A stretch of DNA of 64,000 bases, taken from assembly GCA_947501445.1 (NCBI GenBank), contig CANMVS010000020.1, positions 12,310-76,309 on the forward strand, written 5' to 3'. This DNA is from an uncultured Rhizobiaceae group bacterium (GTDB lineage Bacteria > Pseudomonadota > Alphaproteobacteria > Rhizobiales > Rhizobiaceae). The notes below the pieces were generated by a model. The model made no database searches. It had not been told where the DNA came from and worked only from the letters and a program-made list of their open reading frames with translations. Shown here piece by piece: positions 28,221 through 46,927 of the stretch (the stretch's first letter is position 1; each line of letters begins with the position of its first letter). Both the position numbers and the translations under genes were made by a program.

Positions 28221-29252
28221 CTACCGGGACGGAATGTTCTCGTGAAACAGAACCTGGAGCCGCGGCAGGTATTCCGGTTCCTTTGTTCCTCTGACGGCAG
28301 CGGCCAGAAGCTTGATGATTTCACGGGCTTCAACGCGCGAGTTTTGATCAATCACGGCATCCAGTGTTCTGTCCAGCAGCATGCTTCTCGTGGCGTCGGT
28401 CAGATCATGCGCGATGAAAATGATATCATGTTGTGCATTAGCTTCTTTCAGTGCCTGGGCGATGCCTTGTGTGCCCGATCCTATATTGTAAATTGCAGAA
28501 GGTCGCTCCGACTTGAGAATCGTGCGGGTTTCCTCATAGGCGCGATCCCTGTCTTCCTCGACTTCGATCAGGGAGGAAACGCGCAGATTGTTGAAGTCGC
28601 GCCCTGTCACAGCACGGAAACCCATTTCGCGTTCTTCATGGCCGCGGTAGGAGGGTGAGCCAATGAAAACGACAATATCATGCTGCTTGTCCGGGTGAAG
28701 AAACCGCCCGGTCAAAAGGCCCGCCAGCCGTCCGGCGGCGCGGTTATCGATTCCAATGTAACCGACTTTCGTTACTGAGCGGATGTCTGAAACCAGGGTT
28801 GCGACACGCACACCCGACGACGCGAGCCTGTTGATGGCTTCGCGTACCGCCGGATGGTCAGGTGCGACGATGCCAACAGCATCGGTCTTTCCAACCAGAT
28901 CATGCAGCCGCGCGGCGACACGATATGGATCAAAGCCGTCGATGACATGCAGATTTGGCAGAACACCGCCATAGCTGGCAGCTTCCTCCAGGAGGTCTTT
29001 TCGCAGATTGGCGATGAAAGTATTGCTGCCACCGGGAAGGATAAAATCGAGCCGAACATCTGCCTCGGGCTGCGCTTCGGTTGGTCCGAAATAACCCATG
29101 CGTTGCGCCGCTATCAACACGATGTCGCGGGTACGTTGTTTGACACCACCGCGGTCATTCAGGGCCCGGTCAACGGTGGCAACTGAAAACCCTACCTCCT
29201 GTGCAATCTGACTGACAGTTGTCTTCACTTTTTGCTCCACGCCTTTTGACAA
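28221..29252 (-). CDS. LacI-family regulator of the sugar island
   Basis: VSQIAQEVGFSVATVDRALNDRGGV HTH, IGIDNRAAGRLAG; divergent from the ABC operon. Confidence 0.92.
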   Translation of the reverse strand: MSKGVEQKVKTTVSQIAQEVGFSVATVDRALNDRGGVKQRTRDIVLIAAQRMGYFGPTEAQPEADVRLDFILPGGSNTFIANLRKDLLEEAASYGGVLPNLHVIDGFDPYRVAARLHDLVGKTDAVGIVAPDHPAVREAINRLASSGVRVATLVSDIRSVTKVGYIGIDNRAAGRLAGLLTGRFLHPDKQHDIVVFIGSPSYRGHEEREMGFRAVTGRDFNNLRVSSLIEVEEDRDRAYEETRTILKSERPSAIYNIGSGTQGIAQALKEANAQHDIIFIAHDLTDATRSMLLDRTLDAVIDQNSRVEAREIIKLLAAAVRGTKEPEYLPRLQVLFHENIPSR

Positions 29253-29447
29253 TTGGCTGATTTGTTATTTCCATCGTAATCCATCATTTCTAAAAACTTC
29301 TGCCAAGACAAGCCAGATTCGACATATTGCAGGCGGAAATGAGTGATAATGATGTAATATGATGAGATATGACGCTTGCGCTGCACTCATTATACATCAA
29401 TATTTCTTCGCAAAGGTGGTGCGAAATCACCGTGTTGGGAGGAAAAG

Positions 29448-31049
29448 ATGGTCATGAAATTTGCGTCTACACGCAGGAAATTCCTGTCTACAACAACCGC
29501 TGCCGGCGTCGTTGCAATAGGTGCGCCGTTCTATCTGCGCCCTGGCCGGGTCAAAGCGGCAGAGGGTCTTGCCGACGGCATGGTTGGCGGACCAACCGGC
29601 TTTGCTGGTGCTGAGCGTTATCAGTACGGGCCGGATAGTCCGGAAGGCCGCGCAATTGAGGCCGCGCGTTCACTGAAGGCTGCCGGAAAGGCACCTGAGC
29701 GAATTGTGCTTGGCCTTTCGGACGGTTCGATTGGTCAAATTACCCAGCCTTTTCCCGCCGGAGCACCGTCAATCAAGGATTTGTGGGAGCAGGAAACCGG
29801 CATCAAACTCGACATTGTTGGTGTGCCCAACGGGCAGGAATTTACCAAGGTGATGCAGGATATCAGCACCAACGGTGGGGCATTTGACATCTATGCGGTC
29901 GAGTGGAACCGTCTTGGAGATCTGGCCGAGACCGGAGGCATTGTCAATCTTGATGAGTATGTTGCGGCGCATCGGCCAGAGTGGGACGATGTGGACCGCG
30001 GCTATGTGGGGGGAGAAAAGGGTGTTTCGCTGCTGAACAATTACCGCGGCTCAACCTACGGCGTGTCGTTGGATGGTGATTTCCAGACATGGAACCACCG
30101 CACCGACCTGTTCTCTGATCCGAAAGAACAAAAGGCTTTTGCCGACAAACACGGGTATGCCCTGGCACCCCCAAAGACCTGGAAAGAACATGATGAAATA
30201 GCGGCCTTTTTCCATCGGCCCGATGAGGGGCTGTTCGGCAGCACCGATCTTCGCAACCAGGGTTGGGGCTATACCAATTGGTACCAGCGTTACGTGTCCA
30301 TGGCATCGCCAAACCAGTATCTGTTTGCTGATGATGGTACTGCGCTGATCAATTCCGAACAGGGCGTTGCGGCGACACAGGAATATGTCAATTCCCTGGC
30401 GCATCATTCGCCGGATGCCATTTCATGGAGCTGGCCGGAACAATATGGTAATTTTGCCAGTGGCGGTGCAGCCATGACCTGTGCCTTCTCCAACCTGCCG
30501 AAATTCCTCGACAATGCTGCCAATGAGGGGTCCAAAGTAACCGGGAAAGTCGGATCGCATCTTCCGCCTGGACGCGTCCATGGTGATGAAATGGTGCGAC
30601 GTTCTGTACTTTGGTTGAACCTGAGTGCCAGTGTTTCTGCGCAATCTGCTCACCCTGAAGCAGCTTATCTGTTGCTGCAATGGCTGGGTTCGTCGCGCAT
30701 CTATTCCTGGATGACCGCAAATCCGGGTGGGTATTTTGATCCATTCCAATTGGCCAATTTTGCTGATCCTCTGGTGCGTGAAACCTACCATGATTATCAC
30801 ATGGATGTGGTGCGAGAGACTGTTCGTCGCACTGTGCCAACCATCAATTACCCCGGCGCAACTGCATTTCACAACGCGCTGGATGAAAATCTGGTGGCGG
30901 CGTTGACCGGTTCCATGACGCCGGAGCAGGCGATGCAGAACACTGAACGCAGTTGGAAGCGCATTGCACGCCGTGTTGGCGAAGAAAAGCTGATTGAGGC
31001 CATCACGGCAAACAAAGCAGCCTGGTCCGATCATATGGATCCGGTCTGA
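29448..31049 (+). CDS. Carbohydrate ABC transporter substrate-binding protein (family 1, Tat signal)
   Basis: STRRKFL twin-arginine signal, WEQETGIK, APPKTWKE, RRTVP..NYPG; SD GGGAGG before ATG 29448. Confidence 0.88.
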   Translation: MVMKFASTRRKFLSTTTAAGVVAIGAPFYLRPGRVKAAEGLADGMVGGPTGFAGAERYQYGPDSPEGRAIEAARSLKAAGKAPERIVLGLSDGSIGQITQPFPAGAPSIKDLWEQETGIKLDIVGVPNGQEFTKVMQDISTNGGAFDIYAVEWNRLGDLAETGGIVNLDEYVAAHRPEWDDVDRGYVGGEKGVSLLNNYRGSTYGVSLDGDFQTWNHRTDLFSDPKEQKAFADKHGYALAPPKTWKEHDEIAAFFHRPDEGLFGSTDLRNQGWGYTNWYQRYVSMASPNQYLFADDGTALINSEQGVAATQEYVNSLAHHSPDAISWSWPEQYGNFASGGAAMTCAFSNLPKFLDNAANEGSKVTGKVGSHLPPGRVHGDEMVRRSVLWLNLSASVSAQSAHPEAAYLLLQWLGSSRIYSWMTANPGGYFDPFQLANFADPLVRETYHDYHMDVVRETVRRTVPTINYPGATAFHNALDENLVAALTGSMTPEQAMQNTERSWKRIARRVGEEKLIEAITANKAAWSDHMDPV

Positions 31050-31062
31050 TACGATTTCTGAA

Positions 31063-31104
31063 CTCCCGGGAAGCCCGGGGGGCCAGCGTGTCTGGCCCCC
31101 GGAG
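31063..31104 (+). other. GC-rich intercistronic hairpin(s) after the binding-protein gene
   Basis: CCGGGGG(G)CCAG-CGTGT-CTGGCCCCCGG; probable mRNA-stabilising element. Confidence 0.5.
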
Positions 31105-31121
31105 ATTGTTAACCTGCTGGT

Positions 31122-31988
31122 GTGCTTATGCGTCGAACCCTATCCTTCGAATTATTACGCTATGGAATGATCCTGCTGCTTTTGGCCATATCGCTGGTTC
31201 CGACGCTGTGGATGCTGTCGATGGCCTTCAAGCCAATCGCCGAATGGTCGGCTTCGGGTGCCGAATTGACCTGGTGGCCCAAAAGTCCAACGCTGGATAA
31301 TTTTCGTTTCATATTCGGGCAATCTTCATCCGAGCTTATCGTTTCTCTGGAGCGTACTGCTGCGCGTCCGATTATGGCTTCGCTGCTGGCTGCGTCCTTC
31401 GGAACCCTGATCGCCATGACAGCAGGCACGGCGGCGGCCTATGGTCTCTCGCGGTTTGGCAAGGGCTCAAACCTGCCGCTGGCTCTCATTCAACTTCGGC
31501 TTTTTCCACCCATGGCTGTCATGATACCGCTGATGATCATGTGGGCGTTTTTGGGGTTGATTGACAATTGGTTTGGACTGGCAGTCGTGTATGGAATTGT
31601 CACGCTGCCCTTTGCCTTCTGGCTGATGAAGACCTTCTTTGATGACATGCCACGGGAAATTGAGGATGCCGCTTTGGTGGAAGGCTGTAGTCGATTGCGG
31701 GTATTCACCAGGATCACTTTGCCGATGATGCGCCCCGCGCTGGCTTCTTCCGCGCTCTTTGTATTCATCCTGAATTGGTCCGATTACCTGATCGCTCTTT
31801 TGCTGACGACGCGGGATTGGGTGACAATTCCGGTTTATATGACGTCTTTATCGTCTTCCATGACAGGGCAGCTATACGGGGCAAAGGCAGCTCTGGGGCT
31901 GATTGCAGCTATACCGCCAGTGATATTGGGAATTGCCATTCAAAAGCATCTGGTGCGCGGCCTTACATTTGGAGCTCTGAAGGAATGA
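31122..31988 (+). CDS. Carbohydrate ABC transporter permease
   Basis: EAA loop [19 protein letters not shown]. Confidence 0.92.
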
Positions 31989-32932
31989 GTGAGATGTCGA
32001 TGGAAAAGGCAGAACTTGCACTGCCAGCGACGAATGATGTCATTGACGAGGAAGTCCGCCTTGGATTCTGGCTGACGTTGCCAGCGCAATGCCTCGTGCT
32101 TTTCATTGCCGTGTTCCCCATCCTGATGCAGCTCTACATCTCGATGACGGACTGGTCGCCGCTGGATGGCATTCCCTGGTACAGGGCTTATGAATTGTGG
32201 ATTGGCCTGATCAACTACACCGATCTGGCATCCGACAGTCGTTTCTGGGCCGCGTTGTGGCGGACATTTGTCGTGATGATCGTATGTGTGCCCATTCAGT
32301 TCCTTCTGGGGTTGGGACTGGCGGTCCTTTTTGTTGACGAATTCCCTGGCAAGCGCTGGTTTTACTCCACGTTGCTGGTGCCCATGATGGTGGTTCCGGC
32401 GGTCGCGGGATACATGTTTTTTCTGCTCTTTCAGTCTGGTGGACCGGTCAATGACCTATTGTCTGTCTTCTCGTCTTCTCCAGTGAGAATAGCCTGGTTG
32501 TCAGACGCCAGCCTGGCCCTGGTGGCTGTCATGGCAGCTGACATCTGGCAATGGACACCATTGATGTTTCTGATCCTGTTGGCAGGCATGATCTCGGTTC
32601 CGCAGGATCAACAGATGGCAGCTGTGCTGCTTGGTGCATCCTGGTGGCGTCGCTTTGTAACCATCGTGCTGCCGCGCATGAAGACCATCATTATCATCGC
32701 GCTGGCGATCCGTACGATCGAAATCTTCAAAATATTCGATACGCTCTACATCATGACGGGTGGTGGACCGGGCGTGGCCACAGAAACCATCAGCGTCTAT
32801 ATTTACAAAGTCACCCAGCAGGACCTGATCTGGGGTTATGTGGCGGCGATAGCGCTGGTCATACTGATCGTATTATCGGTCGTCTCTGCCTATGCGATCA
32901 GCACAATGTCAAAAGGGGCGAAAGTCAGATGA
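31985..32932 (+). CDS. Carbohydrate ABC transporter permease
   Basis: [35 protein letters not shown]; start refined to ATG 31985. Confidence 0.92.
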
Positions 32933-34023
32933 CGCAAATTGCCCTTTCCAATCTTGGTAAGAAATTCGGCGCGTTCACGGCGCTGGCACAGATGAACCTG
33001 ACCATCGGTGATGGTGAGTTCGTGGCCCTTTTGGGTCCATCGGGTTGCGGAAAATCCACCACAATGAACATGATCGCCGGTATGGTGGCCCCCACTGAGG
33101 GTGATATTCGTTTTGATGACCGCAGCATCCTGAATGTGCCGATGAGCCGCCGCGGTGTTGGCTTTGTTTTCCAGAACTATGCCATTTTCACCCATATGTC
33201 GGTTCGCGATAACCTCTCTTACGGGCTGCGGGCACAGGGGGTCAGTACACCCGAACGCAATCGGCGGGTCAGCGCAATGGCTGATCTGCTGCAATTGACA
33301 CCGATGCTGGATCGCCAGGCTGCTGGCCTGTCTGTTAATATCCTGCAGCGGCTTGCCATTGGTCGCTCTGCTGTTGTCGAGCCTGCCATTTTTCTGCTTG
33401 ATGAGCCCTTGTCCAATGTTGATGCCGCTTTCCGGTCCGTCATGCGCAGTGAGCTCAAAGAACTGCAAAGGCAGTTTTCACAAACCATGGTTTATGTCAC
33501 CCATGACCAGCTCGAGGCCATGACCATGGCAGACCGCATTGCGGTGATGGATCATGGCAAACTGCTGCAGGTTGGCACGCCACTGGAGATTTATAACAAC
33601 CCGCAAGATATTTTTGTTGCAAGGTTCATCGGTTCTCCGGGAATGAATATTCTGGAGGGAAGAATTGCACAATCGGATAAGGGTAAGCTGGTCGATCTTG
33701 CTGTGATCGGGCGTTCCGCGCCGCTGATCCTTTCGGGGCGAGCGGCCATTGAGGATTTGCCGGAAAAAATCCTTTTCGGTTTTCGTCCCGAACAGGTCAA
33801 TCCTGACCCGAATGGAACCTTGGCCCTGCCGGTTAATTTTGTTGAGCGTATTGGTGCGCGCTCGATCCTGCACCTTGGGGCGGATAGCATGGGGGTCAAA
33901 GCGGTGCTGGACAATCAGATCACGCTGCCGAATATTGGCGATATATTGCGTTTCTCAATCGACCCCAAGAAGGTCCGGTTGTTTGATCCGGTGTCCGGAA
34001 ACGCCGTCGGGGGAGCGGATTGA
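32929..34023 (+). CDS. Carbohydrate ABC transporter ATP-binding protein
   Basis: GPSGCGKS, variant signature LSVNILQR, LLDEPLS, YVTHDQ; start refined to ATG 32929. Confidence 0.92.
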   Translation: MTQIALSNLGKKFGAFTALAQMNLTIGDGEFVALLGPSGCGKSTTMNMIAGMVAPTEGDIRFDDRSILNVPMSRRGVGFVFQNYAIFTHMSVRDNLSYGLRAQGVSTPERNRRVSAMADLLQLTPMLDRQAAGLSVNILQRLAIGRSAVVEPAIFLLDEPLSNVDAAFRSVMRSELKELQRQFSQTMVYVTHDQLEAMTMADRIAVMDHGKLLQVGTPLEIYNNPQDIFVARFIGSPGMNILEGRIAQSDKGKLVDLAVIGRSAPLILSGRAAIEDLPEKILFGFRPEQVNPDPNGTLALPVNFVERIGARSILHLGADSMGVKAVLDNQITLPNIGDILRFSIDPKKVRLFDPVSGNAVGGAD

Positions 34024-35042
34024 TGGCATCGATACGCCTTGAAAACATCTGCAAACGCTATGGTGATGTGGTGGCTTTGGACAATGTAAGCCTCGACGTT
34101 GAGGATAACGGATTCTTCTGCCTGTTTGGACCGCCGCTAAGCGGCAAGACAACAATCCTGAAGATCATACTTGGTCTGGAAACACCCGACAGCGGCTCTG
34201 TCTTCATCAACGACCGTCCAATGAAGGGTGTAACTCCGGCGCAGCGTAACGTGGCCATGGTCTTTCAAAATCTGGCATTGTTCCCGCACATGTCTGCATT
34301 GAACAATGTGCGTTTCCCGTTGGTCGAGCGCGGTGTATCGGAAGACCTGATTGTCAAACGTGTCGATACGGTGACCAGAAAACTGCATATGCAGCATATC
34401 CTTCACAAACCGCCATCACAACTTTCCGGTGGTGAGCGCCAACGTGTTGCCATTGCCCGCGCACTGGTGCGCGATCCCGTGGCATATCTGATGGATGATC
34501 CCATTTCAGCGCTTGATGCCCGTTTGCGCGAAGAAACCCGGGTGGAACTGCGGCGCATTCAGCGCGAGATGAACCAGACCGTCATTTACGTGACCCATGA
34601 TCAGGAAGAGGCCATGTCAGTGTCTGATCAGATGGCCATTTTTGAAGCTGGCAGAGTTCGCCAGATCGGCGCGCCACATGACCTTTATGATGCACCGGCC
34701 AACACTTATGTGGCCGAAATGCTGGGAGCACCGGCTATCAATCTCGTCGCGACACACGGGACACAATTGCAGACAGGCGGGTTTGTCCCGCAGCAGGCGG
34801 TGCGACTGGGGGTGCGGCCGGAACATCTGAGGGTTTTGAAAGATGGTGGGCAGACACGGGTCAAGGCGATCGAACCCATGGGTGCAACTACGATCCTGAC
34901 ACTGCAGGCTGATGAAACGGTGCTGAAAGCCGCTCTGCACGGGCAACCGGAATTTCAGGTCGGTGAGGCAGTCAGCCTGTCAGTCGATCCGGCACAGATA
35001 CTTTATTTTGACGGGAACGGCGACACATTGGTTGCTGCCTAG
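34023..35042 (+). CDS. Carbohydrate ABC transporter ATP-binding protein (second)
   Basis: GPPLSGKT, LSGGERQR, LMDDPIS, YVTHDQ. Confidence 0.92.
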   Translation: MASIRLENICKRYGDVVALDNVSLDVEDNGFFCLFGPPLSGKTTILKIILGLETPDSGSVFINDRPMKGVTPAQRNVAMVFQNLALFPHMSALNNVRFPLVERGVSEDLIVKRVDTVTRKLHMQHILHKPPSQLSGGERQRVAIARALVRDPVAYLMDDPISALDARLREETRVELRRIQREMNQTVIYVTHDQEEAMSVSDQMAIFEAGRVRQIGAPHDLYDAPANTYVAEMLGAPAINLVATHGTQLQTGGFVPQQAVRLGVRPEHLRVLKDGGQTRVKAIEPMGATTILTLQADETVLKAALHGQPEFQVGEAVSLSVDPAQILYFDGNGDTLVAA

Positions 35043-35055
35043 TGGGGAGGGATAC

Positions 35056-36156
35056 ATGACAAAGTTCAAACCGGATCCGGATATTCGCAATCGGGAATCG
35101 CGTATTGGTTGCATAGGCGCCGGAATGATCATGGCGGAATGTCACCTTGCAGCCTACGCACAGGCAGGTTTTCCTGTCACGGCAATCGCCTCGCGTACCC
35201 CGCAGAACGCCGCCGCTGTTGCCGGCCGGTACAAAATTCCAACGGTGCACAACACACCGGAAGAACTGATTGCCGACCCTTCAGTCGACATTCTTGATAT
35301 TGCCTATCCACCAGATCAGCAACCCGCTCTCATCCGTGCCGCCCTGCAACAATCACATATCAAGGCAATTCTGGTGCAAAAGCCCTTGGCCCTTACGCTG
35401 GGCGAAGCGATTGCCCTGCGTGACGAAGCAAAAGCTGCAGGGAAGATCGTCAGCGTTAATCAGAATATGCGCTATGATCAGTCCATGCAGGTTTTGAAGC
35501 AAATTCTTGTCCGCGGTGATATCGGACAGGCCGTTTTTGCGCAAATTGACATGCATGCCATTCCCCATTGGCAGGCGTTTCTTGAAGATTATGACCGGCT
35601 GACTCTGGCAAATATGAGCGTGCATCATCTTGATGTGTTGCGGTTTTTGTTTGGCGATCCGGATGAGATCACGACGCAGGCGCGCAAGGATCCACGCACA
35701 GGCTTTGATCATCACGATGGCATTACTGTTTCGACCCTGCGATTTCCTTCTGGCGTGCTCGCCCTAACCGTGGAGGATGTGTGGTCCGGGCCACGAGAGG
35801 ATCACTACGAGGATGATCAGCATATCACCTTCCGGGTCGAAGGAACACAAGGCGTCGTCAAGGGCTCTATTGGCTGGCCCACCGGCTCCGCATCGACACT
35901 GAGCTACGCGTCCACCACAACAACCGGCGGAAAATGGGTGACACCATCGTGGAACAGCATGTGGTTTCCGCAAGCGTTCATCGGCGTCATGGAGCAACTG
36001 CAATATGCCGTGACCACAAAAAGCGAACCGGCACTGACTATCGCGGACAATGTGAAAACCGTAGCGCTGATCGAGGCTGGCTATCGTTCCATGGCCGAGG
36101 GTCGCACCGTGCGTCTATCAGAAATCAACACAAAACAGACACCAAACGGAGGATGA
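35056..36156 (+). CDS. Gfo/Idh/MocA-family NAD-dependent oxidoreductase
   Basis: IGCIGAGMI, ILVQKPLA, VNQNMRY, MSVHHLD; SD GGGAGG. Confidence 0.9.
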   Translation: MTKFKPDPDIRNRESRIGCIGAGMIMAECHLAAYAQAGFPVTAIASRTPQNAAAVAGRYKIPTVHNTPEELIADPSVDILDIAYPPDQQPALIRAALQQSHIKAILVQKPLALTLGEAIALRDEAKAAGKIVSVNQNMRYDQSMQVLKQILVRGDIGQAVFAQIDMHAIPHWQAFLEDYDRLTLANMSVHHLDVLRFLFGDPDEITTQARKDPRTGFDHHDGITVSTLRFPSGVLALTVEDVWSGPREDHYEDDQHITFRVEGTQGVVKGSIGWPTGSASTLSYASTTTTGGKWVTPSWNSMWFPQAFIGVMEQLQYAVTTKSEPALTIADNVKTVALIEAGYRSMAEGRTVRLSEINTKQTPNGG

Positions 36157-36160
36157 AGTC

Positions 36161-37075
36161 ATGATGCAAGCGGGAATTTTTACAGGCTATTTTCCCTACG
36201 GACTTGAGGAAACAGCCAAAAAGATCAGGAGCCATGGCTTCAACACAGTCCAGTTGGACCTGCATTTCAAGGATGTCGATTTGGGTCACGGCAAACTGAA
36301 CGCTGCAAATTGCAAGCAGGTGCGTGACACTTTCCGCTCCCATGACCTGCCGATATGTGCCGTATCGGCCTATACCAACATCATTCATCCCGACCTTGCC
36401 CAGCGCAAGGCCAATGTCGATAGGCTGAAGGAAATAATACGAAATGCCCGGGCATTGGGTTCGCGTTACGTGATTTCTGAAACCGGCACCTACAATGAGG
36501 AAAGCGAATGGATGTCGCATCCCAAGAACAAGTCGGAAGAGGGATTTGAGGCTTGTCGCGAAATTATCGCTGAGCTGGCGCAGGAAGCCTATGATCATGG
36601 TTCGATGTTTCTGCTGGAAACCTACGTCAACAATGTTGTGGGGTCGGTTGAGGAAACGGTGAAAATGTTTGCCCAGGTTGATCACCCCGGACTGGGTTTG
36701 CTGATGGATCCAACCAACTATTTTGAAGACCATAACATCGACCAGATGGATCAGGTGCTCAATCAGGTTTTTGACACGTTGTCCGACAAGATCAAGATTG
36801 CTCACGCCAAGGATGTTGCACGGGCCGATGATGACAAATCGGAAAAACACGCTGATATCGGTGATGATGACGCCCTGGCCTCCCACACGTTTCGCGGGGT
36901 GGGTGAAATTGTATTGAATGCGCCGGGCACCGGGGTGCTGAATTATGATCTGTATCTGCAGCGCCTGGCTGAAAAACATCCGAATATAGAGATGGTCATT
37001 GAACATCTTGATGAGGCCGACGTGCCACGATCAAAGGCGTTTATCGACGGTAAATTTGTCGCCAACGGTGTTTGA
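36161..37075 (+). CDS. Sugar phosphate isomerase/epimerase (xylose-isomerase-like TIM barrel)
   Basis: LLETY, LMDPTN, IAHAKD, GTGVLNY, VIEH metal-binding pattern. Confidence 0.88.
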   Translation: MMQAGIFTGYFPYGLEETAKKIRSHGFNTVQLDLHFKDVDLGHGKLNAANCKQVRDTFRSHDLPICAVSAYTNIIHPDLAQRKANVDRLKEIIRNARALGSRYVISETGTYNEESEWMSHPKNKSEEGFEACREIIAELAQEAYDHGSMFLLETYVNNVVGSVEETVKMFAQVDHPGLGLLMDPTNYFEDHNIDQMDQVLNQVFDTLSDKIKIAHAKDVARADDDKSEKHADIGDDDALASHTFRGVGEIVLNAPGTGVLNYDLYLQRLAEKHPNIEMVIEHLDEADVPRSKAFIDGKFVANGV

Positions 37076-37150: not shown

Positions 37151-38362
37151 ATGGTAGACATTTATGGCACAACGCATTCCCGTCGCGACATTGCGGCCAG
37201 ATCGGGTGCCTTGAGTCAGTTTGCCGGCGTGCGTTTGATGACATTGGGTGATGGTGTCGAGCGCAATGTACGGATGTTGGAGTTTCGTACGGGTAGCGGA
37301 ATGCGCTTTACTGTACTGGTGGACCGGGCGATGGATATCGCCGAATTGGAATACAATGGCAAAGCCATTGGATGGCACTCTCCAGCGGGTTTTCGCAATC
37401 CGGCTTTGCATGAGGTCGAGGGTGAGGGCGGCATTGCCTGGGCACGCAGTTTTTCCGGATTTTTGGTGACCTGCGGACTGGATCATACGCTGGCTCCCGA
37501 AGAGGTGCCTGCTGACAATTACAATTACCCGGGCCGAGCAACTGTACGCCATGTTTTACACGGGCGTGTCGGTTCAATACCAGCCCGATTATCCGGGTAT
37601 GGAGAGCAATGGAAAGGTGATCAATGCGTTCTTTGGGCAGAAGGCATCGTGAAGCAATCCACTGTATTCGGCGAGGATTTGCACCTGCTGCGACGCATTG
37701 AGGCTGACGTGGGCGGGCGTGAAATCCGTCTTTACGACCGGGTCGTCAATCATGGTTTTCTACGCACGCCGCATATGTTCTTCTATCATATCAATCTGGG
37801 TTATCCATTGCTTGATGAAGGTGCGCGCTATCTGGCCCCCATCAGTGATGTCGTTTGGGCGTCCCATGCGGGTGATGCCTATCGCTCGCAGGGTGTTGGC
37901 TATGCCAGGGCCGGGGCACCTGCAGATGGTTTTTGCGAACAGGTCTGGCAGCATGAGATGCGTGCAAATGCACAAGGCGAGGTTCCGGTCGCGCTTATCA
38001 ATGACCGATTAAATCTCGGCCTGGAAGTTGTGACAAACAAGAACCAATTGCCCTGTGCCTTTCAATGGCAGAATTTTCAGGCAGGCAATTATGCGATGGG
38101 CATCGAGCCATCCAGCCATCACGTCCTTGGCAATCTCGCAGCGCGTGAGCGTGGTGAGATGATCTGGCTTGGGCATGATGAGGCGCGTACCTATGACGCA
38201 CGTTTCACTGTGCTCGATGGTGCCGCAGAAACGGCCGACTGTGAAAGGCGCATAAAGGCGATCGCTTCGCAGCCGAAGGATGATTTTCCCATACCGTCGG
38301 GACAATTCCCGTCCCTGGCATCCGAACGCAACGCCTCCGGGCTGCGTGCAGACACACGATAG
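37151..38362 (+). CDS. Aldose 1-epimerase superfamily protein (DUF4432 type)
   Basis: FTVLVDRAMDI, FLVTCGLDH, LHGRVG, FYHINLGYPLLD, WQ..YAMGIEPS. Confidence 0.85.
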   Translation: MVDIYGTTHSRRDIAARSGALSQFAGVRLMTLGDGVERNVRMLEFRTGSGMRFTVLVDRAMDIAELEYNGKAIGWHSPAGFRNPALHEVEGEGGIAWARSFSGFLVTCGLDHTLAPEEVPADNYNYPGRATVRHVLHGRVGSIPARLSGYGEQWKGDQCVLWAEGIVKQSTVFGEDLHLLRRIEADVGGREIRLYDRVVNHGFLRTPHMFFYHINLGYPLLDEGARYLAPISDVVWASHAGDAYRSQGVGYARAGAPADGFCEQVWQHEMRANAQGEVPVALINDRLNLGLEVVTNKNQLPCAFQWQNFQAGNYAMGIEPSSHHVLGNLAARERGEMIWLGHDEARTYDARFTVLDGAAETADCERRIKAIASQPKDDFPIPSGQFPSLASERNASGLRADTR

Positions 38363-38380: not shown

Positions 38381-39484
38381 TTGACGATATCTGATATCCA
38401 AACACGCGACTACAGTCTGACCGGCGACAACACCCGGCGTGCTGTTGAAACCGGGTTGGCCAGTGCGCAATGGTATCATACAGACGTGCCGCGCAAGGTG
38501 ATGAAAGAACTGATGCAACGGCGCGACGGACCGGCAGTCCGCGACACGATAATCTGGCTGGGTTTGCTTGCAGCCAGCGGCGCCGGCGGTGCCTATTTCT
38601 GGGGCACCTGGATTTGTGTGCCGTTCTTCTTTGTCTATGGCGTTCTTTACGGTTCAGTTTGTGACAGCCGGTGGCATGAATGCGGGCATGGCACGGCATT
38701 CAGAACACGCTGGATGAATGATGTGGTCTATCAACTCGCCAGTTTCATGGTGTTTCGCAACCCGGTTTCTTGGCGCTGGAGCCATGCGCGCCATCATACT
38801 GATACGGTCATTGTGGGCCGCGATCCGGAAATAGCCTTTATGCGTCCACCAAATCTGGTTGAAGGCCTATTGCACTATGTCGGACTTCTGGACGTTATGG
38901 CCTCCTTCGGAGCCATGGTGCGCAATGCGTGTGGAACGCTGACATCATCTGAAAAAAGCTACATTCCTGAATCCGAATGGTCCAAGGCAATTACGGCTGC
39001 GCGGATCCACATGGCCATCTATCTGGCAGCGGCCATAGCTTCGTTGTTGATGTGGTCCATCCTGCCGATGATGCTGGTTGGGCTGCCACGGTTTTATGGT
39101 TGCTGGCACATGTTCATGACCGGGCTTTTGCAGCACGGTGGTCTTGCAGAGGATGTTGTCGATCATCGTTTGAATTCGCGTACCGTTTACATGAATCCGA
39201 TCAGTCGGTGGATCTATTGGAACATGAATTACCATGTAGAGCACCATATGTTTCCGATGGTTCCATATCACGCTTTGCCCCGGTTGCATGCATTGATCAA
39301 GGACGATTTACCGGAGCCCAATCCATCCATCTGGCATGCCTATGTCGAGATGGTGCGCGTGCTTTTGCGCCAACGAAGCGACCCCGAGTATTATCTGCGC
39401 AGAACACTGCCTGAGACCGCCCGACCGTACCGCGAAGAATTTCATGTCGACGACGCCGTGCCCGCTGCAAGCAGTATCGCGTGA
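38381..39484 (+). CDS. mocD: MocD-like membrane di-iron hydrocarbon oxygenase (fatty acid desaturase family)
   Basis: Three His boxes HECGH, HARHH, HVEHH; clustered with MocE/MocF-like genes. Confidence 0.8.
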   Translation: MTISDIQTRDYSLTGDNTRRAVETGLASAQWYHTDVPRKVMKELMQRRDGPAVRDTIIWLGLLAASGAGGAYFWGTWICVPFFFVYGVLYGSVCDSRWHECGHGTAFRTRWMNDVVYQLASFMVFRNPVSWRWSHARHHTDTVIVGRDPEIAFMRPPNLVEGLLHYVGLLDVMASFGAMVRNACGTLTSSEKSYIPESEWSKAITAARIHMAIYLAAAIASLLMWSILPMMLVGLPRFYGCWHMFMTGLLQHGGLAEDVVDHRLNSRTVYMNPISRWIYWNMNYHVEHHMFPMVPYHALPRLHALIKDDLPEPNPSIWHAYVEMVRVLLRQRSDPEYYLRRTLPETARPYREEFHVDDAVPAASSIA

Positions 39485-39508: not shown

Positions 39509-40309
39509 ATGATTAGTAAAAGACCGACAATTGCAGATTTGCGCGCGCTAAAAGGCAAGCGACAGCTGACAATGCTGCGAATTTTCACCATTGACGAAGC
39601 CGAGGCGGCTGAAACCGCCGGCATCGACATTGTTTCCATTCCACCAGAACTGCTTTTGAATCCGCGCTATCGCGACGTCGCTCCATCGTTGTTTTCCATG
39701 ACCGGAATGACGCATCAGGAGGCTGGTACCCGTGACGACTACCTGCGTTTTGCCGGTAAAATGCTGCAGGCCGATGGTGATGCCCTTTATTGCAGCGGCG
39801 GTATTGGCACAGTGAAATTTCTGGCAGACGAGTACATTCCGGTTGTCGCTCATGTGGGCCTCGTGCCCTCGCGTGCCACCTGGACCGGAGGCTACCGGGC
39901 CGTTGGGAAAACGGCGGAAACTGCGCTGGCGCTGTTTGAGGAATGCAGGGCGTTTGAAGAGGCCGGCGCCTTTGCCGTGGAGATTGAAGTCGTACCGACG
40001 GAAGTGGCGAGTGAAATCAGCAAAAGGCTGGATATGCTTTTGTGGTCCATGGGCTCGGGTGCGGGGTGCGATGTGCAATATCTTTTTGCCGAAGATATTC
40101 TGGGCGAAAATCGCGGCCACATGCCGCGTCACTCAAAAGTCTACCGCAATTTTTCAGCCGAGTATGACAGACTGCAGATTGAGCGCATTGCCGCATTCCG
40201 CGAATATATCGCTGATGTCAACAGCGGCTCCTATCCGAAAGACAATCACATTGTGCATATGGCCAATGACGAATTCTCGCGCTTTCGCAATCAGCTTGAT
40301 AACACCTGA
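39509..40309 (+). CDS. Divergent PanB (ketopantoate hydroxymethyltransferase)-like protein
   Basis: VAHVGLVP, GGYRAVGK, IEVVP, GSGAGCD and SGSYP match PanB, but the VGDS, ADLPF and KIEG motifs are absent. Confidence 0.85.
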   Translation: MISKRPTIADLRALKGKRQLTMLRIFTIDEAEAAETAGIDIVSIPPELLLNPRYRDVAPSLFSMTGMTHQEAGTRDDYLRFAGKMLQADGDALYCSGGIGTVKFLADEYIPVVAHVGLVPSRATWTGGYRAVGKTAETALALFEECRAFEEAGAFAVEIEVVPTEVASEISKRLDMLLWSMGSGAGCDVQYLFAEDILGENRGHMPRHSKVYRNFSAEYDRLQIERIAAFREYIADVNSGSYPKDNHIVHMANDEFSRFRNQLDNT

Positions 40310-40321
40310 CGGGATGAACCT

Positions 40322-40633
40322 ATGCCATGGATACGTGCCTGTGAGGCAGACGACATTGACGCTGAGGATGTGATCCGGTTTGACTACAATGACCATACCT
40401 ATGCGCTGTACCGCAGCCCGGATGACCAGTATTTTGCAACCGATGGACTGTGTACCCATGAAAATGTTCATCTGTGTGATGGTCTGGTGATGGACAACAT
40501 CATTGAGTGCCCGAAACACAACGGCCGATTTGACTATACAACGGGTGCGGCCAGGGGGGCTCCAGCGTGTATTGCTCTCAAAACCTACAATGTGAAAGTT
40601 GAAGGCAATTTTGTGATGATCGAGATTGATTGA
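40322..40633 (+). CDS. mocE: MocE-family Rieske 2Fe-2S ferredoxin
   Basis: CTHE and CPKH Rieske ligands; EDVIRFD and ATDGLCTHE family pattern. Confidence 0.88.
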   Translation: MPWIRACEADDIDAEDVIRFDYNDHTYALYRSPDDQYFATDGLCTHENVHLCDGLVMDNIIECPKHNGRFDYTTGAARGAPACIALKTYNVKVEGNFVMIEID

Positions 40634-41913
40634 TGGCCGGATCAAAGGGGATGGTCATTGCTGGCGGCGGAATATCTGCTGTCAGCGCTGCCAATGCGCT
40701 GCGCGATGAGGGCTGGTCCGGGGCGATCACCCTGATCAGCGATGAACCGCATACACCCTACGACCGTCCGCCACTTTCCAAATCTTTCGTAACTGACGCA
40801 GGGGCGAGCGTACCCTATCTGACAGATCAATTAGCATTGGCTGACAGGAAAATCGGGTTCATTCAATCCACAGCGATTATTGAGATTGATCGGCAGCGAT
40901 CCTGTGTCAAATTGAGTGATGGCCAGCACATCTTCTATGAAAAACTACTCATTGCCACCGGTGCCCGGCCACGCCGTTTGACATTGCCGGGTTCTGACTG
41001 TTCCCGCGTGCGATATCTGCGAACAGTTGATGATTCCAGGGCCATAGGCCAGCAGCTGTTGCCTGGCGCTCACATGATTGTCATCGGCGGTGGATTTATT
41101 GGTCTCGAGTTAGCCAGCAGTGCACGCAAACGCGGTGCCTCAGTAACGCTTATTGAGAGCCTGCCGCGCATTTTGTCGCGTGGTGTTCCACTGGAGATTG
41201 CGCAGGTTGTGGCGAGCCGGCATGAACTGGAGGGCGTCAATATTTTATGCAGCGCGCTGGTTTCGGAAATAGTAAATGACACAGACACGATCAGCGTCAG
41301 GTTGGCAGACGGTCAGACCATTGCCGGTGATTTAGTGGTTGCCGGCATCGGTTCGGTGCCAGAGACGGGGTTGGCTGTCGCTGCTGGATTGGCTGTTGAA
41401 AATGGAATTTGTGTTGACGCTCATATGCAGACAAGCGATCCCGACATTTATGCGGCCGGCGATTGTGTGTCTTTTCCCCTGGCCTCCCACGGGGACATGA
41501 GGGTGCGGCTTGAATCCTGGCGCAATGCGCAGGACCAGGGTGCATTAGCGGCTGTCAACATGTTGGGCCAATGCCGGACTTATGACGCCATACCATGGTT
41601 CTGGTCGGATCAATATGACCTGTCTCTCCAGATAACAGGGCTGCATAGTGGACAGGACCGGCCCATACGCCGCGACCTTGGTAACGGCGCTTTCATCGTT
41701 TTTCATCTGGATCAAAAAGGGTGTTTGACCAGTGCCAGCGGCATTGGTGTTGGCAATGCCGTCGCCCGCGATATTCGCCTGGCGGAGATGCTGATCGCCA
41801 GGGGTGTCCATCCGCCGGAAGAGCAATTGGTTGATGGCAAGATGTCACTCAAGGCGCTGCTGAAAGCGGCGGCAGTATGCCCGGATTTGTCTATAGCTGC
41901 CTCCAAGGATTAA
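40633..41913 (+). CDS. Ferredoxin-NAD(P)H reductase (MocF-like)
   Basis: GGGISA, YDRPPLSK, LLIATG, GGGFIGLE, YAAGDC, RLESW, PWFWSDQY. Confidence 0.92.
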   Translation: MAGSKGMVIAGGGISAVSAANALRDEGWSGAITLISDEPHTPYDRPPLSKSFVTDAGASVPYLTDQLALADRKIGFIQSTAIIEIDRQRSCVKLSDGQHIFYEKLLIATGARPRRLTLPGSDCSRVRYLRTVDDSRAIGQQLLPGAHMIVIGGGFIGLELASSARKRGASVTLIESLPRILSRGVPLEIAQVVASRHELEGVNILCSALVSEIVNDTDTISVRLADGQTIAGDLVVAGIGSVPETGLAVAAGLAVENGICVDAHMQTSDPDIYAAGDCVSFPLASHGDMRVRLESWRNAQDQGALAAVNMLGQCRTYDAIPWFWSDQYDLSLQITGLHSGQDRPIRRDLGNGAFIVFHLDQKGCLTSASGIGVGNAVARDIRLAEMLIARGVHPPEEQLVDGKMSLKALLKAAAVCPDLSIAASKD

Positions 41914-43956: not shown

Positions 43957-44058
43957 TATAGCAACTCAGGATATAACAGACTTGGCAAAACCTGAATGCA
44001 TCAACAAAATCAAAGGCCAACACCATTGTCCCGTTTTTGACAAAACTGAAACGGTCTA
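43957..44058 (+). repeat. ~100 bp dual-hairpin intergenic repeat, copy 4
   Basis: TATAGCAACTCAGG...AAAACCTGAATGCATCAACAAAATCAAAGGCCAACACC...GAAACGGTCTAG; its end supplies the TAG stop of the TPR gene. Confidence 0.88.
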
Positions 44059-44880: not shown

Positions 44881-44935
44881 TCGATCTGCTGTCACCCGTA
44901 TGTTCCTCACGCTTCATGCATGTTGCCAAAAAGTC

Positions 44936-45241: not shown

Positions 45242-45653
45242 CTTGATCCCGTTCCTTCCGGTTTAGAGTTGAGCCAGCGCATCAATTCAAGGATACTCTA
45301 TGGCAAATAAATTCTGGTTCGCGAAAGTCAAAGACCTCGCGGTTGCAAGGCGAGTAACAGAAAATGCAATCCAAGTCCACACTTTTGGGCGCAAAATGAT
45401 GAATTTGATGCATATTTGTTAAATCCCGGTGACATGGATTGGCCGCGCGGCGTCATGCGTCGCAAAAGAGCAATTGCTTTGGTCGCAAATCTGCCATCAG
45501 ATACGCAGACTTTGGATGATCCAATGCGCCTTGCTTTTCGTCTGCCGAACAGATGAGAGGTTATGCGTCGACAAAACAGATAGTATTTTGGTTTTTGCCT
45601 CTTTTGATAGCACAAAATTGGCAAATGGCCTTAACCGGGAGCCTGTATCACCC

Positions 45654-46907: not shown

Positions 46908-46927
46908 TCAACCGGACGGTCATAGAC

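What the first reader, a model, noticed from the sequence alone, without database searches (positions are those of the whole stretch)
39509..40309. PanB paralogue stripped of its Mg2+ ligands, embedded between mocD and mocE
Seen, against the E. coli PanB sequence as recalled: the LVGDSLG..GHDSTLPV segment (Asp45) is deleted (about 20 aa, leaving IVSIPPELL), ADLPF (Asp84) is replaced by SMTGMTH, and VKIEGG (Lys112/Glu114) by LYCSGG. His136 (AHVGLVP) and the catalytic Glu181 (IEVVP) are kept. Known: PanB needs Mg2+ bound by those acidic residues to enolise ketoisovalerate and accept a CH2-THF or formaldehyde unit, and oxidative O-demethylation releases formaldehyde. Inference: this cannot be a normal PanB. 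It may be a repurposed C1/formaldehyde-handling enzyme, a (retro-)hydroxymethylase for a branched sugar intermediate, or a non-catalytic partner of the oxygenase.
Basis: partly seen in the sequence, partly recalled or inferred. Interest (0 to 1): 0.65.

Follow-up and report, generated by a model that had tools for sequence, protein, structure and literature searches.

The report
PanB-like partner of membrane sugar oxygenase
This gene encodes a conserved, selected offshoot of the vitamin B5 enzyme PanB that has lost PanB's metal and substrate site; it travels with membrane iron oxygenases in sugar or cyclitol breakdown clusters, probably handles the one-carbon unit they remove, and is wrongly labelled PanB in databases.

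Summary
ORF 39509-40309 (266 aa) has the PanB fold. Asp45, Asp84, Lys112 and Glu114 of E. coli PanB are replaced by Pro46, Gly66, Tyr94 and Ser96. About 19 residues after strand 2 are missing. His136 and Glu181 are kept as His115 and Glu160.

- **Not decay.** The same losses occur in all 52 diverse clade representatives and in none of 32 canonical PanBs. dN/dS is 0.05-0.14.
- **Not PanB in function.** The genome has a true panB next to panC elsewhere. Four genomes with only this type have no panC.
- **Linked to an oxygenase.** The gene lies just downstream of a MocD-like His-box membrane oxygenase in 70 of 80 genomes, in varying gene order. Distant relatives sit beside a different membrane di-iron family.
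- **Uncharacterised.** I found no solved structure and no paper on the clade. Databases call it PanB.

Best reading (confidence about 0.4): a soluble catalytic accessory that passes the hydroxymethyl or formaldehyde unit made by oxygenase demethylation to tetrahydrofolate. This mechanism is inferred, not shown. Rivals are a retro-aldol step on a branched sugar, a non-catalytic partner, or other sugar chemistry.

The scan had already noted this protein on at least eight other genomes.

The parts
39509..40309 (+). PanB-like protein (P0001, 266 aa), soluble TIM barrel, the subject of the finding
   Evidence: PF02548 at 137.8 bits over profile positions 91-258 only. Below both NCBIfam PanB cut-offs. 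AF2 model pLDDT 85.8 with eight strands. Best PDB matches are PanB structures, TM 0.70-0.73. No hydrophobic segments.
39644..39646 (+). Pro46 codon, at the position of the PanB Mg2+ ligand Asp45
   Evidence: Alignments. Asp is invariant in 32 canonical PanBs and never Asp in the clade.
39656..39661 (+). Leu50/Asn51 junction: site of the roughly 19-residue deletion (helix alpha-2 region of PanB)
   Evidence: 19-column gap in all clade members in alignment A1. The model shows two short helical turns (46-49, 54-57) in place of alpha-2.
39704..39706 (+). Gly66 codon, at the position of the PanB Mg2+ ligand Asp84
   Evidence: Invariant Gly in the MocD-linked subclade.
39788..39796 (+). Tyr94-Cys95-Ser96, at the positions of PanB Lys112-Ile-Glu114
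   Evidence: Tyr94 and Cys95 are invariant in alignment A3.
39851..39853 (+). His115, retained equivalent of PanB His136
   Evidence: Conserved in 96% of the clade and 100% of canonical PanBs.
39980..39988 (+). Glu158-Ile-Glu160. Glu160 is the retained catalytic Glu181. Glu158 is a clade-specific acidic residue (Val179 in PanB)
   Evidence: Glu160 is conserved in 96% of the clade. Glu158 is conserved in 92% of the clade, against Val in 97% of canonical PanBs.
38381..39484 (+). MocD-like membrane di-iron oxygenase, the conserved partner
   Evidence: PF00487 at 136 bits. His boxes HECGH, HARHH and HVEHH and two hydrophobic hairpins. Adjacent upstream of the PanB-like gene in 70 of 80 loci.
40322..40633 (+). 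MocE-family Rieske [2Fe-2S] ferredoxin
   Evidence: TIGR02377 at 159.5 bits, above the 136.15 cut-off. CTH...CPKH motif. Present in 54 of 80 loci.
40630..41913 (+). Ferredoxin-NAD(P)+ reductase (MocF-like); its start overlaps the Rieske gene's stop
   Evidence: Best NCBIfam matches are AndAa and HcaD type ferredoxin reductases, E about 1e-103.
37151..38362 (+). DUF4432 protein, frequent neighbour just upstream of the oxygenase
   Evidence: PF14486 at 304.9 bits. Present in 40 of 80 loci.
36161..37075 (+). Xylose-isomerase-like TIM barrel protein (the family that includes IolI, IolE and MocC)
   Evidence: PF01261 at 100.8 bits. Present in 37 of 80 loci.
34963..36156 (+). Gfo/Idh/MocA oxidoreductase
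   Evidence: PF01408, PF02894 and PF22725. Present in 33 of 80 loci.
29376..35042 (+). CUT1-type sugar ABC importer: binding protein, two permease ORFs and two ATPases. ORF limits only; several starts are probably over-extended
   Evidence: PF01547, PF00528 and PF00005 with MalK OB or TOBE domains. Same gene order in the Tabrizicola locus L003.
28221..29252 (-). Divergent LacI-family regulator
   Evidence: PF00356 and PF13407. A LacI gene also lies next to the module in loci L005/L006, L007, L008 and L131.

Best explanation
The gene encodes a soluble, catalytically active offshoot of PanB that no longer makes ketopantoate. It is an accessory enzyme of a MocD/MocE/MocF-type membrane oxygenase module inside a LacI-controlled sugar or cyclitol uptake and breakdown operon.

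Proposed mechanism:
1. The importer brings in a methylated sugar or cyclitol.
2. The His-box di-iron oxygenase, fed by the Rieske ferredoxin and its reductase, hydroxylates the methyl group.
3. The resulting hydroxymethyl (hemiacetal) or formaldehyde unit is taken over by the PanB-like protein. It uses the conserved C-terminal half of the barrel (His115, Glu160, Asp188, the GG-F/Y-R/K lid and the P-R-H-x-K loop) to pass the unit to tetrahydrofolate as 5,10-methylene-tetrahydrofolate. This avoids release of free formaldehyde.
4. The demethylated product enters ordinary sugar or inositol catabolism through the Gfo/Idh/MocA dehydrogenase and the TIM-barrel isomerase.

Shown: fold, ligand loss, clade status, purifying selection, separation from pantothenate synthesis, and genetic linkage to the oxygenase.

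Inferred: O-demethylation as the oxygenase reaction, folate binding, and C1 capture.
For: - **Not PanB.** All Mg2+ and 2-oxo-acid ligands are replaced across the clade. It scores below the PanB equivalog cut-offs. The genome has a separate canonical panB next to panC. Four genomes that carry only this type have no panC.
- **Functional.** Thousands of homologues exist; the top 120 are 69-90% identical. dN/dS is 0.05-0.14. The eight-stranded barrel is predicted with confidence.
- **Probably catalytic, with part of PanB's chemistry kept.** His136 and Glu181 equivalents are kept in 96%. Identity to PanB is 33% in the C-terminal half against 17% in the N-terminal half. Clade-specific conserved Glu158, Ser180 and His208 lie on or beside strands 6-8 of the barrel.
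- **Tied to the oxygenase step.**
  - A MocD-like gene lies directly upstream on the same strand in 70 of 80 genome loci, in orders D-P, D-E-P, D-E-F-P and D-P-E-F.
  - Linkage persists in relatives with only 36% (oxygenase) and 43% (PanB-like) identity.
  - In two loci the partner is instead a PF04116 FA_hydroxylase-family di-iron oxygenase with Rieske and reductase genes.
  - Across 121 alphaproteobacterial families, 8 of 9 genomes with the PanB-like type also have a MocD homologue (Fisher p = 1.8e-6).
- **Minimal modules.** LacI, a sugar ABC importer, the oxygenase and the PanB-like gene, with no dedicated dehydrogenase, fit a simple demethylation that yields a common sugar.
- **Background knowledge.** Hydroxylation of an O-methyl group gives a hemiacetal that releases formaldehyde (own knowledge). 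PanB uses 5,10-methylene-tetrahydrofolate and needs a divalent metal to enolise its keto acid (PMC7770189, PMC13488298), so losing the metal site removes the keto-acid half-reaction.
Against: - No experiment or structure shows where PanB binds folate, so retention of the folate half is an inference from the conservation pattern.
- Hemiacetal breakdown and the formaldehyde-tetrahydrofolate condensation both occur spontaneously, so an enzyme is not strictly needed.
- The described rhizopine mocDEF operon has no such gene (PMC10107442). MocD-like modules without it exist on a Burkholderia plasmid and in genomes G063 and G075.
- No folate or C1 genes are conserved in the neighbourhood.
- Some clade members lie in unrelated contexts with no oxygenase nearby.
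- The N-terminal half is strongly conserved within the MocD-linked subclade. That suggests a second specific ligand, a sugar or a protein.
- O-demethylation by MocD itself rests on genetics and homology, not biochemistry.
- The substrate of this operon is unknown.
Confidence: 0.4

Rival explanations
1. It is a retro-aldol de-hydroxymethylase acting on a branched sugar or cyclitol. The oxygenase hydroxylates a C-methyl group to C-CH2OH. A dehydrogenase makes the neighbouring ketone. The PanB-like enzyme then runs the PanB reaction in reverse on this non-acid ketone and releases the C1 unit to tetrahydrofolate or as formaldehyde.
For: - It uses PanB's own chemistry and the retained Glu181 and His136 equivalents.
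- The remodelled N-terminal half is conserved within the subclade (Ser43, Phe62, Gly66, Tyr94, Cys95), and the smaller residues at the old metal site could make room for a bulky polyol.
- Gfo/Idh/MocA and TIM-barrel genes are frequent neighbours, in 33 and 37 of 80 loci.
- It would explain why the gene is tied to the oxygenase step.
Against: - Minimal modules lack a dedicated dehydrogenase.
- No metal site remains to stabilise an enolate.
- The homology-based precedent for MocD is O-demethylation.
- C-methyl cyclitols are rarer substrates than O-methyl ones (own knowledge).
Confidence: 0.2
2. It is a non-catalytic structural or docking partner of the membrane oxygenase, for example a scaffold for the Rieske ferredoxin or for substrate delivery. 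It would be a dead enzyme kept for its shape.
For: - It is tightly packed with, or overlaps, the oxygenase or Rieske genes.
- The PanB active-site ligands are lost.
- Two highly conserved loops (120-129 and 201-208) are modelled with low confidence, as expected for segments that become ordered on binding a partner.
Against: - Catalytic Glu and His are kept in 96%, and new conserved polar residues lie on or beside barrel strands 6-8.
- It partners with two different oxygenase families.
- Close relatives, 64-65% identical, stand alone in unrelated contexts.
- It co-occurs in the same genome with the oxygenase even when the two genes are not adjacent.
Confidence: 0.15
3. It is an enzyme with different chemistry on the sugar or cyclitol product, such as an isomerase, an epimerase or a lyase. 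It may use a relocated metal site built from His115, Glu158, Glu160, Asp188 and His208, with no folate involved.
For: - This set of conserved His, Glu and Asp residues is the kind that can bind a metal.
- The ICL/PEPM superfamily, to which the fold also matches, has diversified into many lyase and mutase reactions.
- Some distant members sit next to inositol-pathway genes or TIM-barrel genes without an oxygenase.
Against: - It does not explain the tight linkage to two oxygenase families.
Confidence: 0.2
4. It is an ordinary or spare PanB, or a decaying panB pseudogene.
For: - Databases name it 3-methyl-2-oxobutanoate hydroxymethyltransferase with a pantothenate GO term.
- It passes the Pfam family threshold.
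Against: - All metal and substrate ligands are lost across the clade.
- It scores below the equivalog cut-offs.
- dN/dS is 0.05-0.14.
- A canonical panB-panC pair lies elsewhere in the genome, and genomes with only this type lack panC.
- Pfam scores fall into two separate groups, 285-364 bits and 95-129 bits.
Confidence: 0.02

Closest known systems
Ketopantoate hydroxymethyltransferase PanB (EC 2.1.2.11; PDB 1M3U, 3VAV, 1O68, 1OY0)
   Same: - Same TIM-barrel fold, TM 0.70-0.73, and same Pfam family.
- His136, Glu181 and Asp209 equivalents are kept.
- The GG-F/Y-K/R lid loop, the P-K/R-x-x-K loop and the long C-terminal helix are kept.
   Different: - Asp45, Ser46, Asp84, Lys112 and Glu114 are all replaced, and helix alpha-2 is deleted.
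- It gained Glu158, Ser180 and His208.
- It is separated from canonical PanBs by a supported tree branch (89/94), beyond a long 1.35 stem shared with one PanB-scoring representative, P0223.
- It is not linked to panC or to pantothenate synthesis.
- It sits in catabolic operons.
MocD/MocE/MocF 'ferredoxin oxygenase' of rhizopine catabolism (S. meliloti L5-30, R. leguminosarum; Bahar 1998 as cited in PMC10107442)
   Same: A His-box membrane oxygenase, a MocE-family Rieske ferredoxin and a reductase lie in one operon next to Gfo/Idh/MocA and TIM-barrel genes.
   Different: - The described mocDEF unit has no PanB-like gene.
- Here the regulator is LacI-type and the importer is CUT1-type, not MocR and MocB.
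- The substrate is unknown.
- S. meliloti 1021, which carries the homologous SM_b20817-20 genes (PMC11387232), is not a rhizopine strain (own knowledge).
Formaldehyde-activating enzymes Fae (tetrahydromethanopterin) and Gfa (glutathione); folate-binding domains of sarcosine and dimethylglycine oxidases; tetrahydrofolate-dependent O-demethylase LigM (own knowledge)
   Same: The proposed role is the same: catch the C1 unit released by demethylation on a carrier rather than let free formaldehyde escape.
   Different: There is no sequence or fold relationship. This is an analogy only. No PanB-fold protein is known to do this, and nothing here tests it.
Isocitrate lyase / PEP mutase superfamily (methylisocitrate lyase 3EOO, 1MUM; dimethylmalate lyase 3FA4)
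   Same: More distant fold matches, TM about 0.5. This is a superfamily known for diversifying its reactions on one barrel.
   Different: Those enzymes keep a Mg2+ site and act on 2-oxo or carboxy acids. Sequence identity is only 12-15%.

Membership tests
PanB / ketopantoate hydroxymethyltransferase (functional family) | Homology to Pfam PF02548 and the PanB TIM-barrel fold | tested here: met
   137.8 bits against a cut-off of 28.7, but only profile positions 91-258 align. Foldseek TM 0.70-0.73 to 3VAV, 1M3U and 1O68.
PanB / ketopantoate hydroxymethyltransferase (functional family) | Score above the curated equivalog or subfamily cut-offs (TIGR00222, NF001452) | tested here: not met
   103.6 bits against 207.55, and 124 against 272. 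Scores in 121 genomes fall into two groups: 285-364 bits (canonical) and 95-129 bits (this type).
PanB / ketopantoate hydroxymethyltransferase (functional family) | Mg2+ and 2-oxo-acid ligands Asp45, Ser46, Asp84, Lys112, Glu114 | tested here: not met
   Replaced by Pro46, Glu47, Gly66, Tyr94 and Ser96. These ligands are invariant in 32 canonical PanBs. Asp45, Asp84 and Lys112 are absent in the PanB-like representatives, and position 114 is a gap, Ser or Gln. The metal requirement of PanB is from PMC13488298 and PMC7770189.
PanB / ketopantoate hydroxymethyltransferase (functional family) | Catalytic Glu181 and His136 | tested here: met
   Glu160 and His115, conserved in 96% of the clade.
PanB / ketopantoate hydroxymethyltransferase (functional family) | Association with pantothenate biosynthesis (panC and the pathway present) | tested here: not met
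   The canonical panB lies next to panC on contig C1 of the same genome. Four genomes with only the PanB-like type have no panC match.
PanB / ketopantoate hydroxymethyltransferase (functional family) | Ketopantoate-forming activity or complementation of a panB mutant | not testable with these tools
   Needs an enzyme assay or complementation of E. coli panB.
MocDEF-type membrane oxygenase module | His-box (eight-His) membrane di-iron oxygenase of the FA_desaturase family in the operon | tested here: met
   PF00487 at 136 bits. HECGH, HARHH and HVEHH motifs and hydrophobic hairpins.
MocDEF-type membrane oxygenase module | MocE-family Rieske ferredoxin and a ferredoxin reductase | tested here: met
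   TIGR02377 at 159.5 bits against 136.15. Reductase E about 1e-103 to the AndAa and HcaD types.
MocDEF-type membrane oxygenase module | Rhizopine-specific companions (MocR regulator, MocB binding protein) and rhizopine as substrate | tested here: not met
   The regulator is LacI-type and the importer is SBP_bac_1/CUT1-type. The substrate cannot be tested here.
MocDEF-type membrane oxygenase module | A PanB-like gene as a described component of the module | tested here: not met
   The literature describes mocDEF as the transcription unit (PMC10107442). I did not check the rhizopine loci by sequence. The PanB-like gene is an addition found in this wider group of modules.
Folate-dependent C1 transfer enzymes (working analogy only) | Binds tetrahydrofolate or 5,10-methylene-tetrahydrofolate | not testable with these tools
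   No PanB-folate complex is among the solved structures found. Retention of the C-terminal half is only suggestive.

The most novel reading that the evidence does not exclude
The PanB-like clade is a previously unrecognised folate-dependent hydroxymethyl or formaldehyde-capturing enzyme. It evolved from PanB by discarding the keto-acid and Mg2+ half-site. It works together with membrane di-iron O-demethylases, so that the methyl carbon of methylated sugars and cyclitols (for example pinitol-type plant and algal compounds) goes straight into the folate C1 pool and is not released as toxic formaldehyde.
Probability: 0.3. Interest if true: 0.75.

Novelty: new variant of a known kind. Interest (0 to 1): 0.6.

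Why it matters
- **Annotation.** More than 6000 predicted proteins match the query at E <= 0.001 (some are probably canonical PanBs). Those of the best 120, and the plasmid copies, that carry a name are labelled 3-methyl-2-oxobutanoate hydroxymethyltransferase, some with a pantothenate GO term. The evidence here says that label is wrong for this clade. It would mislead metabolic reconstructions, for example predicted pantothenate prototrophy in genomes that in fact lack both panB and panC.
- **Biology.** The protein marks a widespread, unstudied catabolic module in rhizobia (S. meliloti pSymB, R. johnstonii pRL11, Mesorhizobium), in freshwater and marine Rhodobacterales, and in other bacteria. 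The module probably lets them use methylated sugars or cyclitols from plants and algae.
- **Enzymology.** If the C1-capture idea holds, it would be the first enzyme of this fold coupling oxidative demethylation to the folate pool. It would also be a clear case of an enzyme keeping its cofactor half-site while discarding its substrate half-site.
- **Testability.** Every step can be tested in standard laboratory strains.

Tried and rejected
- **Pseudogene or spare PanB: rejected**.
- **Informative gene fusions: none found.** The long representatives are a tandem double PanB, or chimeras with unrelated fragments.
- **Conserved folate or C1 genes in 80 neighbourhoods: none.** The recurrent neighbours are ABC importer parts, DUF4432, a TIM-barrel protein, a Gfo/Idh/MocA protein, LacI, and some MFS, enolase-family and SDR genes.
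- **A gene that replaces the PanB-like one where MocD-like modules lack it** (G063, G075, G079 third copy, Burkholderia plasmid): nothing consistent.
- **A shared theme in 'orphan' contexts: none.** The Actinomycetota MAG loci and the loci L125-L128 are heterogeneous.
- **Literature: ten searches, nothing on the clade.** Topics covered PanB-like or PanB homologues, mocD/mocE, pinitol demethylase and catabolism, DUF4432, the SMb20817-21 and pRL1106x locus tags, and membrane O-demethylases. No functional study of the clade or of the S. meliloti or R. johnstonii loci turned up. The supplements of the pea-rhizosphere transcriptome paper hold none of the guessed tags.
- The alignment held sequences from annotated plasmid records.
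- **The look-up of sequencing runs: not available**, so I obtained no expression evidence.
- **3D pocket geometry: not analysed.** Model coordinates are not exposed to scripts, so the idea of a relocated metal site is untested.
Full report
**1. The observation**

ORF 39509-40309 on the + strand is open for 266 codons. It follows the upstream oxygenase gene by 24 bases, with a GAGGGAG ribosome-binding site. It precedes the Rieske gene by 12 bases.

It matches Pfam PF02548 (PanB) at 137.8 bits, but only profile positions 91-258 align. Both NCBIfam PanB models are missed by a wide margin: 124 bits against 272, and 103.6 against 207.55.

I aligned it with E. coli PanB and with the genome's own canonical PanB, and then in an 87-sequence alignment. 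The result:

| E. coli PanB | This protein |
|---|---|
| LVGDS (Asp45) | SIPPE (Pro46) |
| next ~19 residues (helix alpha-2 region) | absent |
| LLLADLPF (Asp84) | FSMTGMTH (Gly66) |
| VKIEGG (Lys112, Glu114) | LYCSGG (Tyr94, Ser96) |
| His136 | His115 |
| Glu181 | Glu160 |

The LVGDS stretch is substituted, and it is the segment after it that is deleted.

**2. It is a clade, not an accident**

- The 5.8-billion-protein search gave 6359 hits. The best 120 are all 69-90% identical and of the same length.
- The 50%-clustered library gave 135 representatives at E <= 1e-30.
- In 32 canonical PanBs, Asp45, Ser46, Asp84, Lys112, Glu114, His136 and Glu181 are invariant.
- In the PanB-like representatives (55 compared; 52 once three PanB-scoring sequences were set aside) the first five are gone. 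Position 45 is Pro, Gly, Ser, Ala or Tyr. Position 84 is Gly, Ala or Ser. Position 112 is mostly Tyr. His136 and Glu181 are kept in about 96%.
- A maximum-likelihood tree puts all canonical PanBs on one side of a branch with 89/94 support. That branch lies beyond a stem of 1.35 changes per site, which also carries representative P0223.
- Three representatives near the base of the tree score as real PanBs in Pfam.
- Across one genome from each of 121 alphaproteobacterial families, Pfam scores fall into two groups. Canonical PanBs score 285-364 bits over the full profile. This type scores 95-129 bits from profile position about 65-93 onward, and occurs in nine genomes.
- dN/dS among Mesorhizobium orthologues is 0.05-0.14 at unsaturated dS.

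**3. It is not doing PanB's job**

The window's genome has a canonical panB (340 bits) directly next to panC on another contig. Four sampled genomes, 94-100% complete, have only the PanB-like type. None of them has a panC match. The protein is therefore kept where the pantothenate pathway is not found.

**4. Structure**

The AlphaFold2 model was built on a 39-sequence alignment. It has pLDDT 85.8 and pTM 0.85.
- It keeps all eight strands of the barrel.
- Helix alpha-2 is replaced by two short turns (46-49 and 54-57).
- The remodelled N-terminal half is modelled with confidence.
- The only low-confidence parts are two highly conserved loops, 120-129 (PSRATWTGGY) and 201-208 (NRGHMPRH). Both have counterparts in PanB.
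- The best solved structures are all PanBs (TM 0.70-0.73), followed by ICL/PEP-mutase superfamily members at TM about 0.5.
- No member of this clade has been solved.

**5. What was kept and what was gained**

- Identity to canonical PanB is 17% over residues 1-107 and 33% over residues 108-250.
- Positions conserved in both groups: His115, Gly117, Pro120, Gly127-Gly128, Gly133, Ala152-Gly153, Glu160, Gly182, Asp188 and Pro206.
- Clade-specific conserved residues, each in at least 88% of the clade: Glu158 (Val179 in PanB), Ser180 (Gly201), Gly184 and His208 (Phe229).
- Within the MocD-linked subclade the N-terminal half is also strongly conserved: Ser43, Arg55, Phe62, Gly66, Asp91, Tyr94 and Cys95 are invariant in 39 sequences.

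The site is therefore rebuilt, not merely emptied. A relocated metal site cannot be excluded.

**6. Genomic company**

The window operon runs as follows:
1. LacI regulator (divergent strand)
2. CUT1 ABC importer
3. Gfo/Idh/MocA oxidoreductase
4. Xylose-isomerase-like TIM barrel
5. DUF4432 protein
6. MocD-like oxygenase
7. PanB-like protein
8. MocE-family Rieske ferredoxin
9. Ferredoxin reductase

The oxygenase has the three His boxes and hydrophobic hairpins of membrane di-iron enzymes. The PanB-like protein has no hydrophobic segment.

In 80 loci from different species, neighbour counts were:

| Neighbour | Loci of 80 |
|---|---|
| MocD homologue within 8 kb, nearly always directly upstream on the same strand | 70 |
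| Rieske gene | 54 |
| DUF4432 | 40 |
| TIM barrel | 37 |
| Gfo/Idh/MocA | 33 |

- Most of the ten loci without a MocD homologue are cut contigs or frameshifted assemblies.
- Gene order varies: D-P; D-E-P; D-E-F-P in S. meliloti pSymB and R. leguminosarum/johnstonii pRL11; and D-P-E-F here.
- The smallest module is LacI, a monosaccharide-type ABC importer, the oxygenase and the PanB-like gene.
- Distant relatives keep the linkage, at 43% PanB-like identity and 36% oxygenase identity.
- In a Bradyrhizobium plasmid and in another alphaproteobacterial family, the neighbour is instead a PF04116 FA_hydroxylase-family di-iron oxygenase with its own Rieske and reductase genes.
- At genome level, 8 of 9 genomes with the PanB-like type also have a MocD homologue, out of 21 of 121 that have one (Fisher p = 1.8e-6). 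With a stricter score limit that I chose after seeing the data, p = 4e-10.

Counter-examples exist:
- MocD-like modules without the gene occur on a Burkholderia plasmid next to iolG, and in genomes G063 and G075.
- The published rhizopine mocDEF unit has none.
- PanB-like genes without an oxygenase nearby also occur.

**7. Reading**

- Linkage to two different oxygenase families, the retained Glu and His, and the existence of stand-alone copies argue for an enzyme whose job follows from the oxygenase's chemistry. They argue against a shape-only subunit.
- PanB needs its metal to enolise the keto acid (PMC7770189, PMC13488298). Losing exactly that half while keeping the other half suggests that the kept part serves PanB's other substrate, the C1 unit on tetrahydrofolate.
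- Hydroxylation of an O-methyl group gives a hemiacetal, hence formaldehyde (own knowledge).
- I therefore favour capture of that unit as methylene-tetrahydrofolate, at about 0.4 confidence.
- The retro-aldol variant on a C-branched sugar uses the same chemistry and is not excluded (0.2).
- A different sugar-directed reaction (0.2) and a docking role (0.15) remain possible.
- Neighbourhoods show no conserved folate genes, and no folate-bound PanB structure is available, so the key step is inferred.

**8. Substrate**

The substrate is unknown.
- The Gfo/Idh/MocA and TIM-barrel pair resembles the IolG/IolI pair that brings chiro-inositol into the inositol pathway (own knowledge).
- The rhizobial loci would suit pinitol-type methyl cyclitols.
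- The CUT1 importer and the mutarotase-like DUF4432 protein here point at least as much to a methylated aldose or glycoside.
- I found no paper that identifies a bacterial pinitol demethylase.

**9. Prior knowledge and novelty**

- I found no functional paper on this clade.
- The S. meliloti 1021 homologues are merely listed as mocD, mocE and mocF (SM_b20818-20) (PMC11387232).
- Databases call the protein PanB.
- The scan itself had noted the same protein on at least eight other genomes. Three follow-up reports reached similar tentative readings. Those are unchecked notes and do not count as support.
- I class it as a new variant of a known kind.

Noticed in passing
window 45429-50791: A sarcosine oxidase cluster starts about 3.5 kb downstream of the operon: soxB family, TIGR01373 at 737.7 bits, followed by a 996-aa ORF and others. 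It is another formaldehyde or methylene-tetrahydrofolate-producing demethylation system. Two opposite-strand genes separate it from the operon, so the proximity may be coincidence.
   Followed up: no
window 41937-43778 (-) and 44056-44910 (-): A 613-aa protein with only weak cyclase-type matches (E about 1e-7) and a TPR-repeat protein lie between the operon and the sox genes.
   Followed up: no
window 29376-31049, 32551-34023, 34963-36156: Several ORF starts are probably over-extended. The Pfam domains begin at residue 133 of the binding protein, 146 of the first ATPase and 47 of the dehydrogenase, and these ORFs overlap their upstream neighbours.
   Followed up: no
L010:9876-10883 (Bradyrhizobium guangzhouense plasmid) and L124:10313-11359: A PF04116 FA_hydroxylase ('sterol desaturase') family membrane oxygenase, with its own Rieske and reductase genes, sits beside a 43-55% identical PanB-like gene. 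This is a second, unstudied type of module. In Bradyrhizobium a ribokinase and a GH88 gene lie nearby.
   Followed up: partly
L083, L089, L090 (Actinomycetota and 'Bifidobacterium' MAG contigs): PanB-like genes 64-65% identical to the window's lie in unrelated contexts: RPE65-type dioxygenase, SDR and esterase; acyl-CoA synthetase; and protease. No MocD-like gene is within 8 kb. This suggests recent horizontal transfer or mis-binned contigs.
   Followed up: partly
G079, G110, G082, G102 (genome search handles): These near-complete alphaproteobacterial genomes have neither a canonical panB nor a panC match, yet keep one or two PanB-like genes. Automatic annotation would wrongly suggest a partial pantothenate pathway.
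   Followed up: partly
L091 (Burkholderia cenocepacia plasmid NZ_CP091015.1): A MocD-like/Rieske/reductase operon without a PanB-like gene lies next to iolG, a TIM-barrel gene, a 'xylose isomerase' and LacI. It looks like a methyl-inositol demethylation locus feeding inositol catabolism.
   Followed up: no
L132:7939-9978 (genome G063): Two MocD-like oxygenase genes in tandem (60% and 41% identical to the window's), followed by a Rieske gene, lie downstream of an ABC permease. No PanB-like match was found in that genome.
   Followed up: no
P0123 (542 aa, metagenomic representative): A protein with two PanB-family domains in tandem, 311 bits in total. The first domain covers the full PanB profile.
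   Followed up: no
L125:5565-7478 (genome G079, second PanB-like copy): A distant PanB-like gene (38-39% identity) lies near an IolC-like PfkB kinase fused to DUF2090. This is another hint of a tie to inositol catabolism.
   Followed up: no
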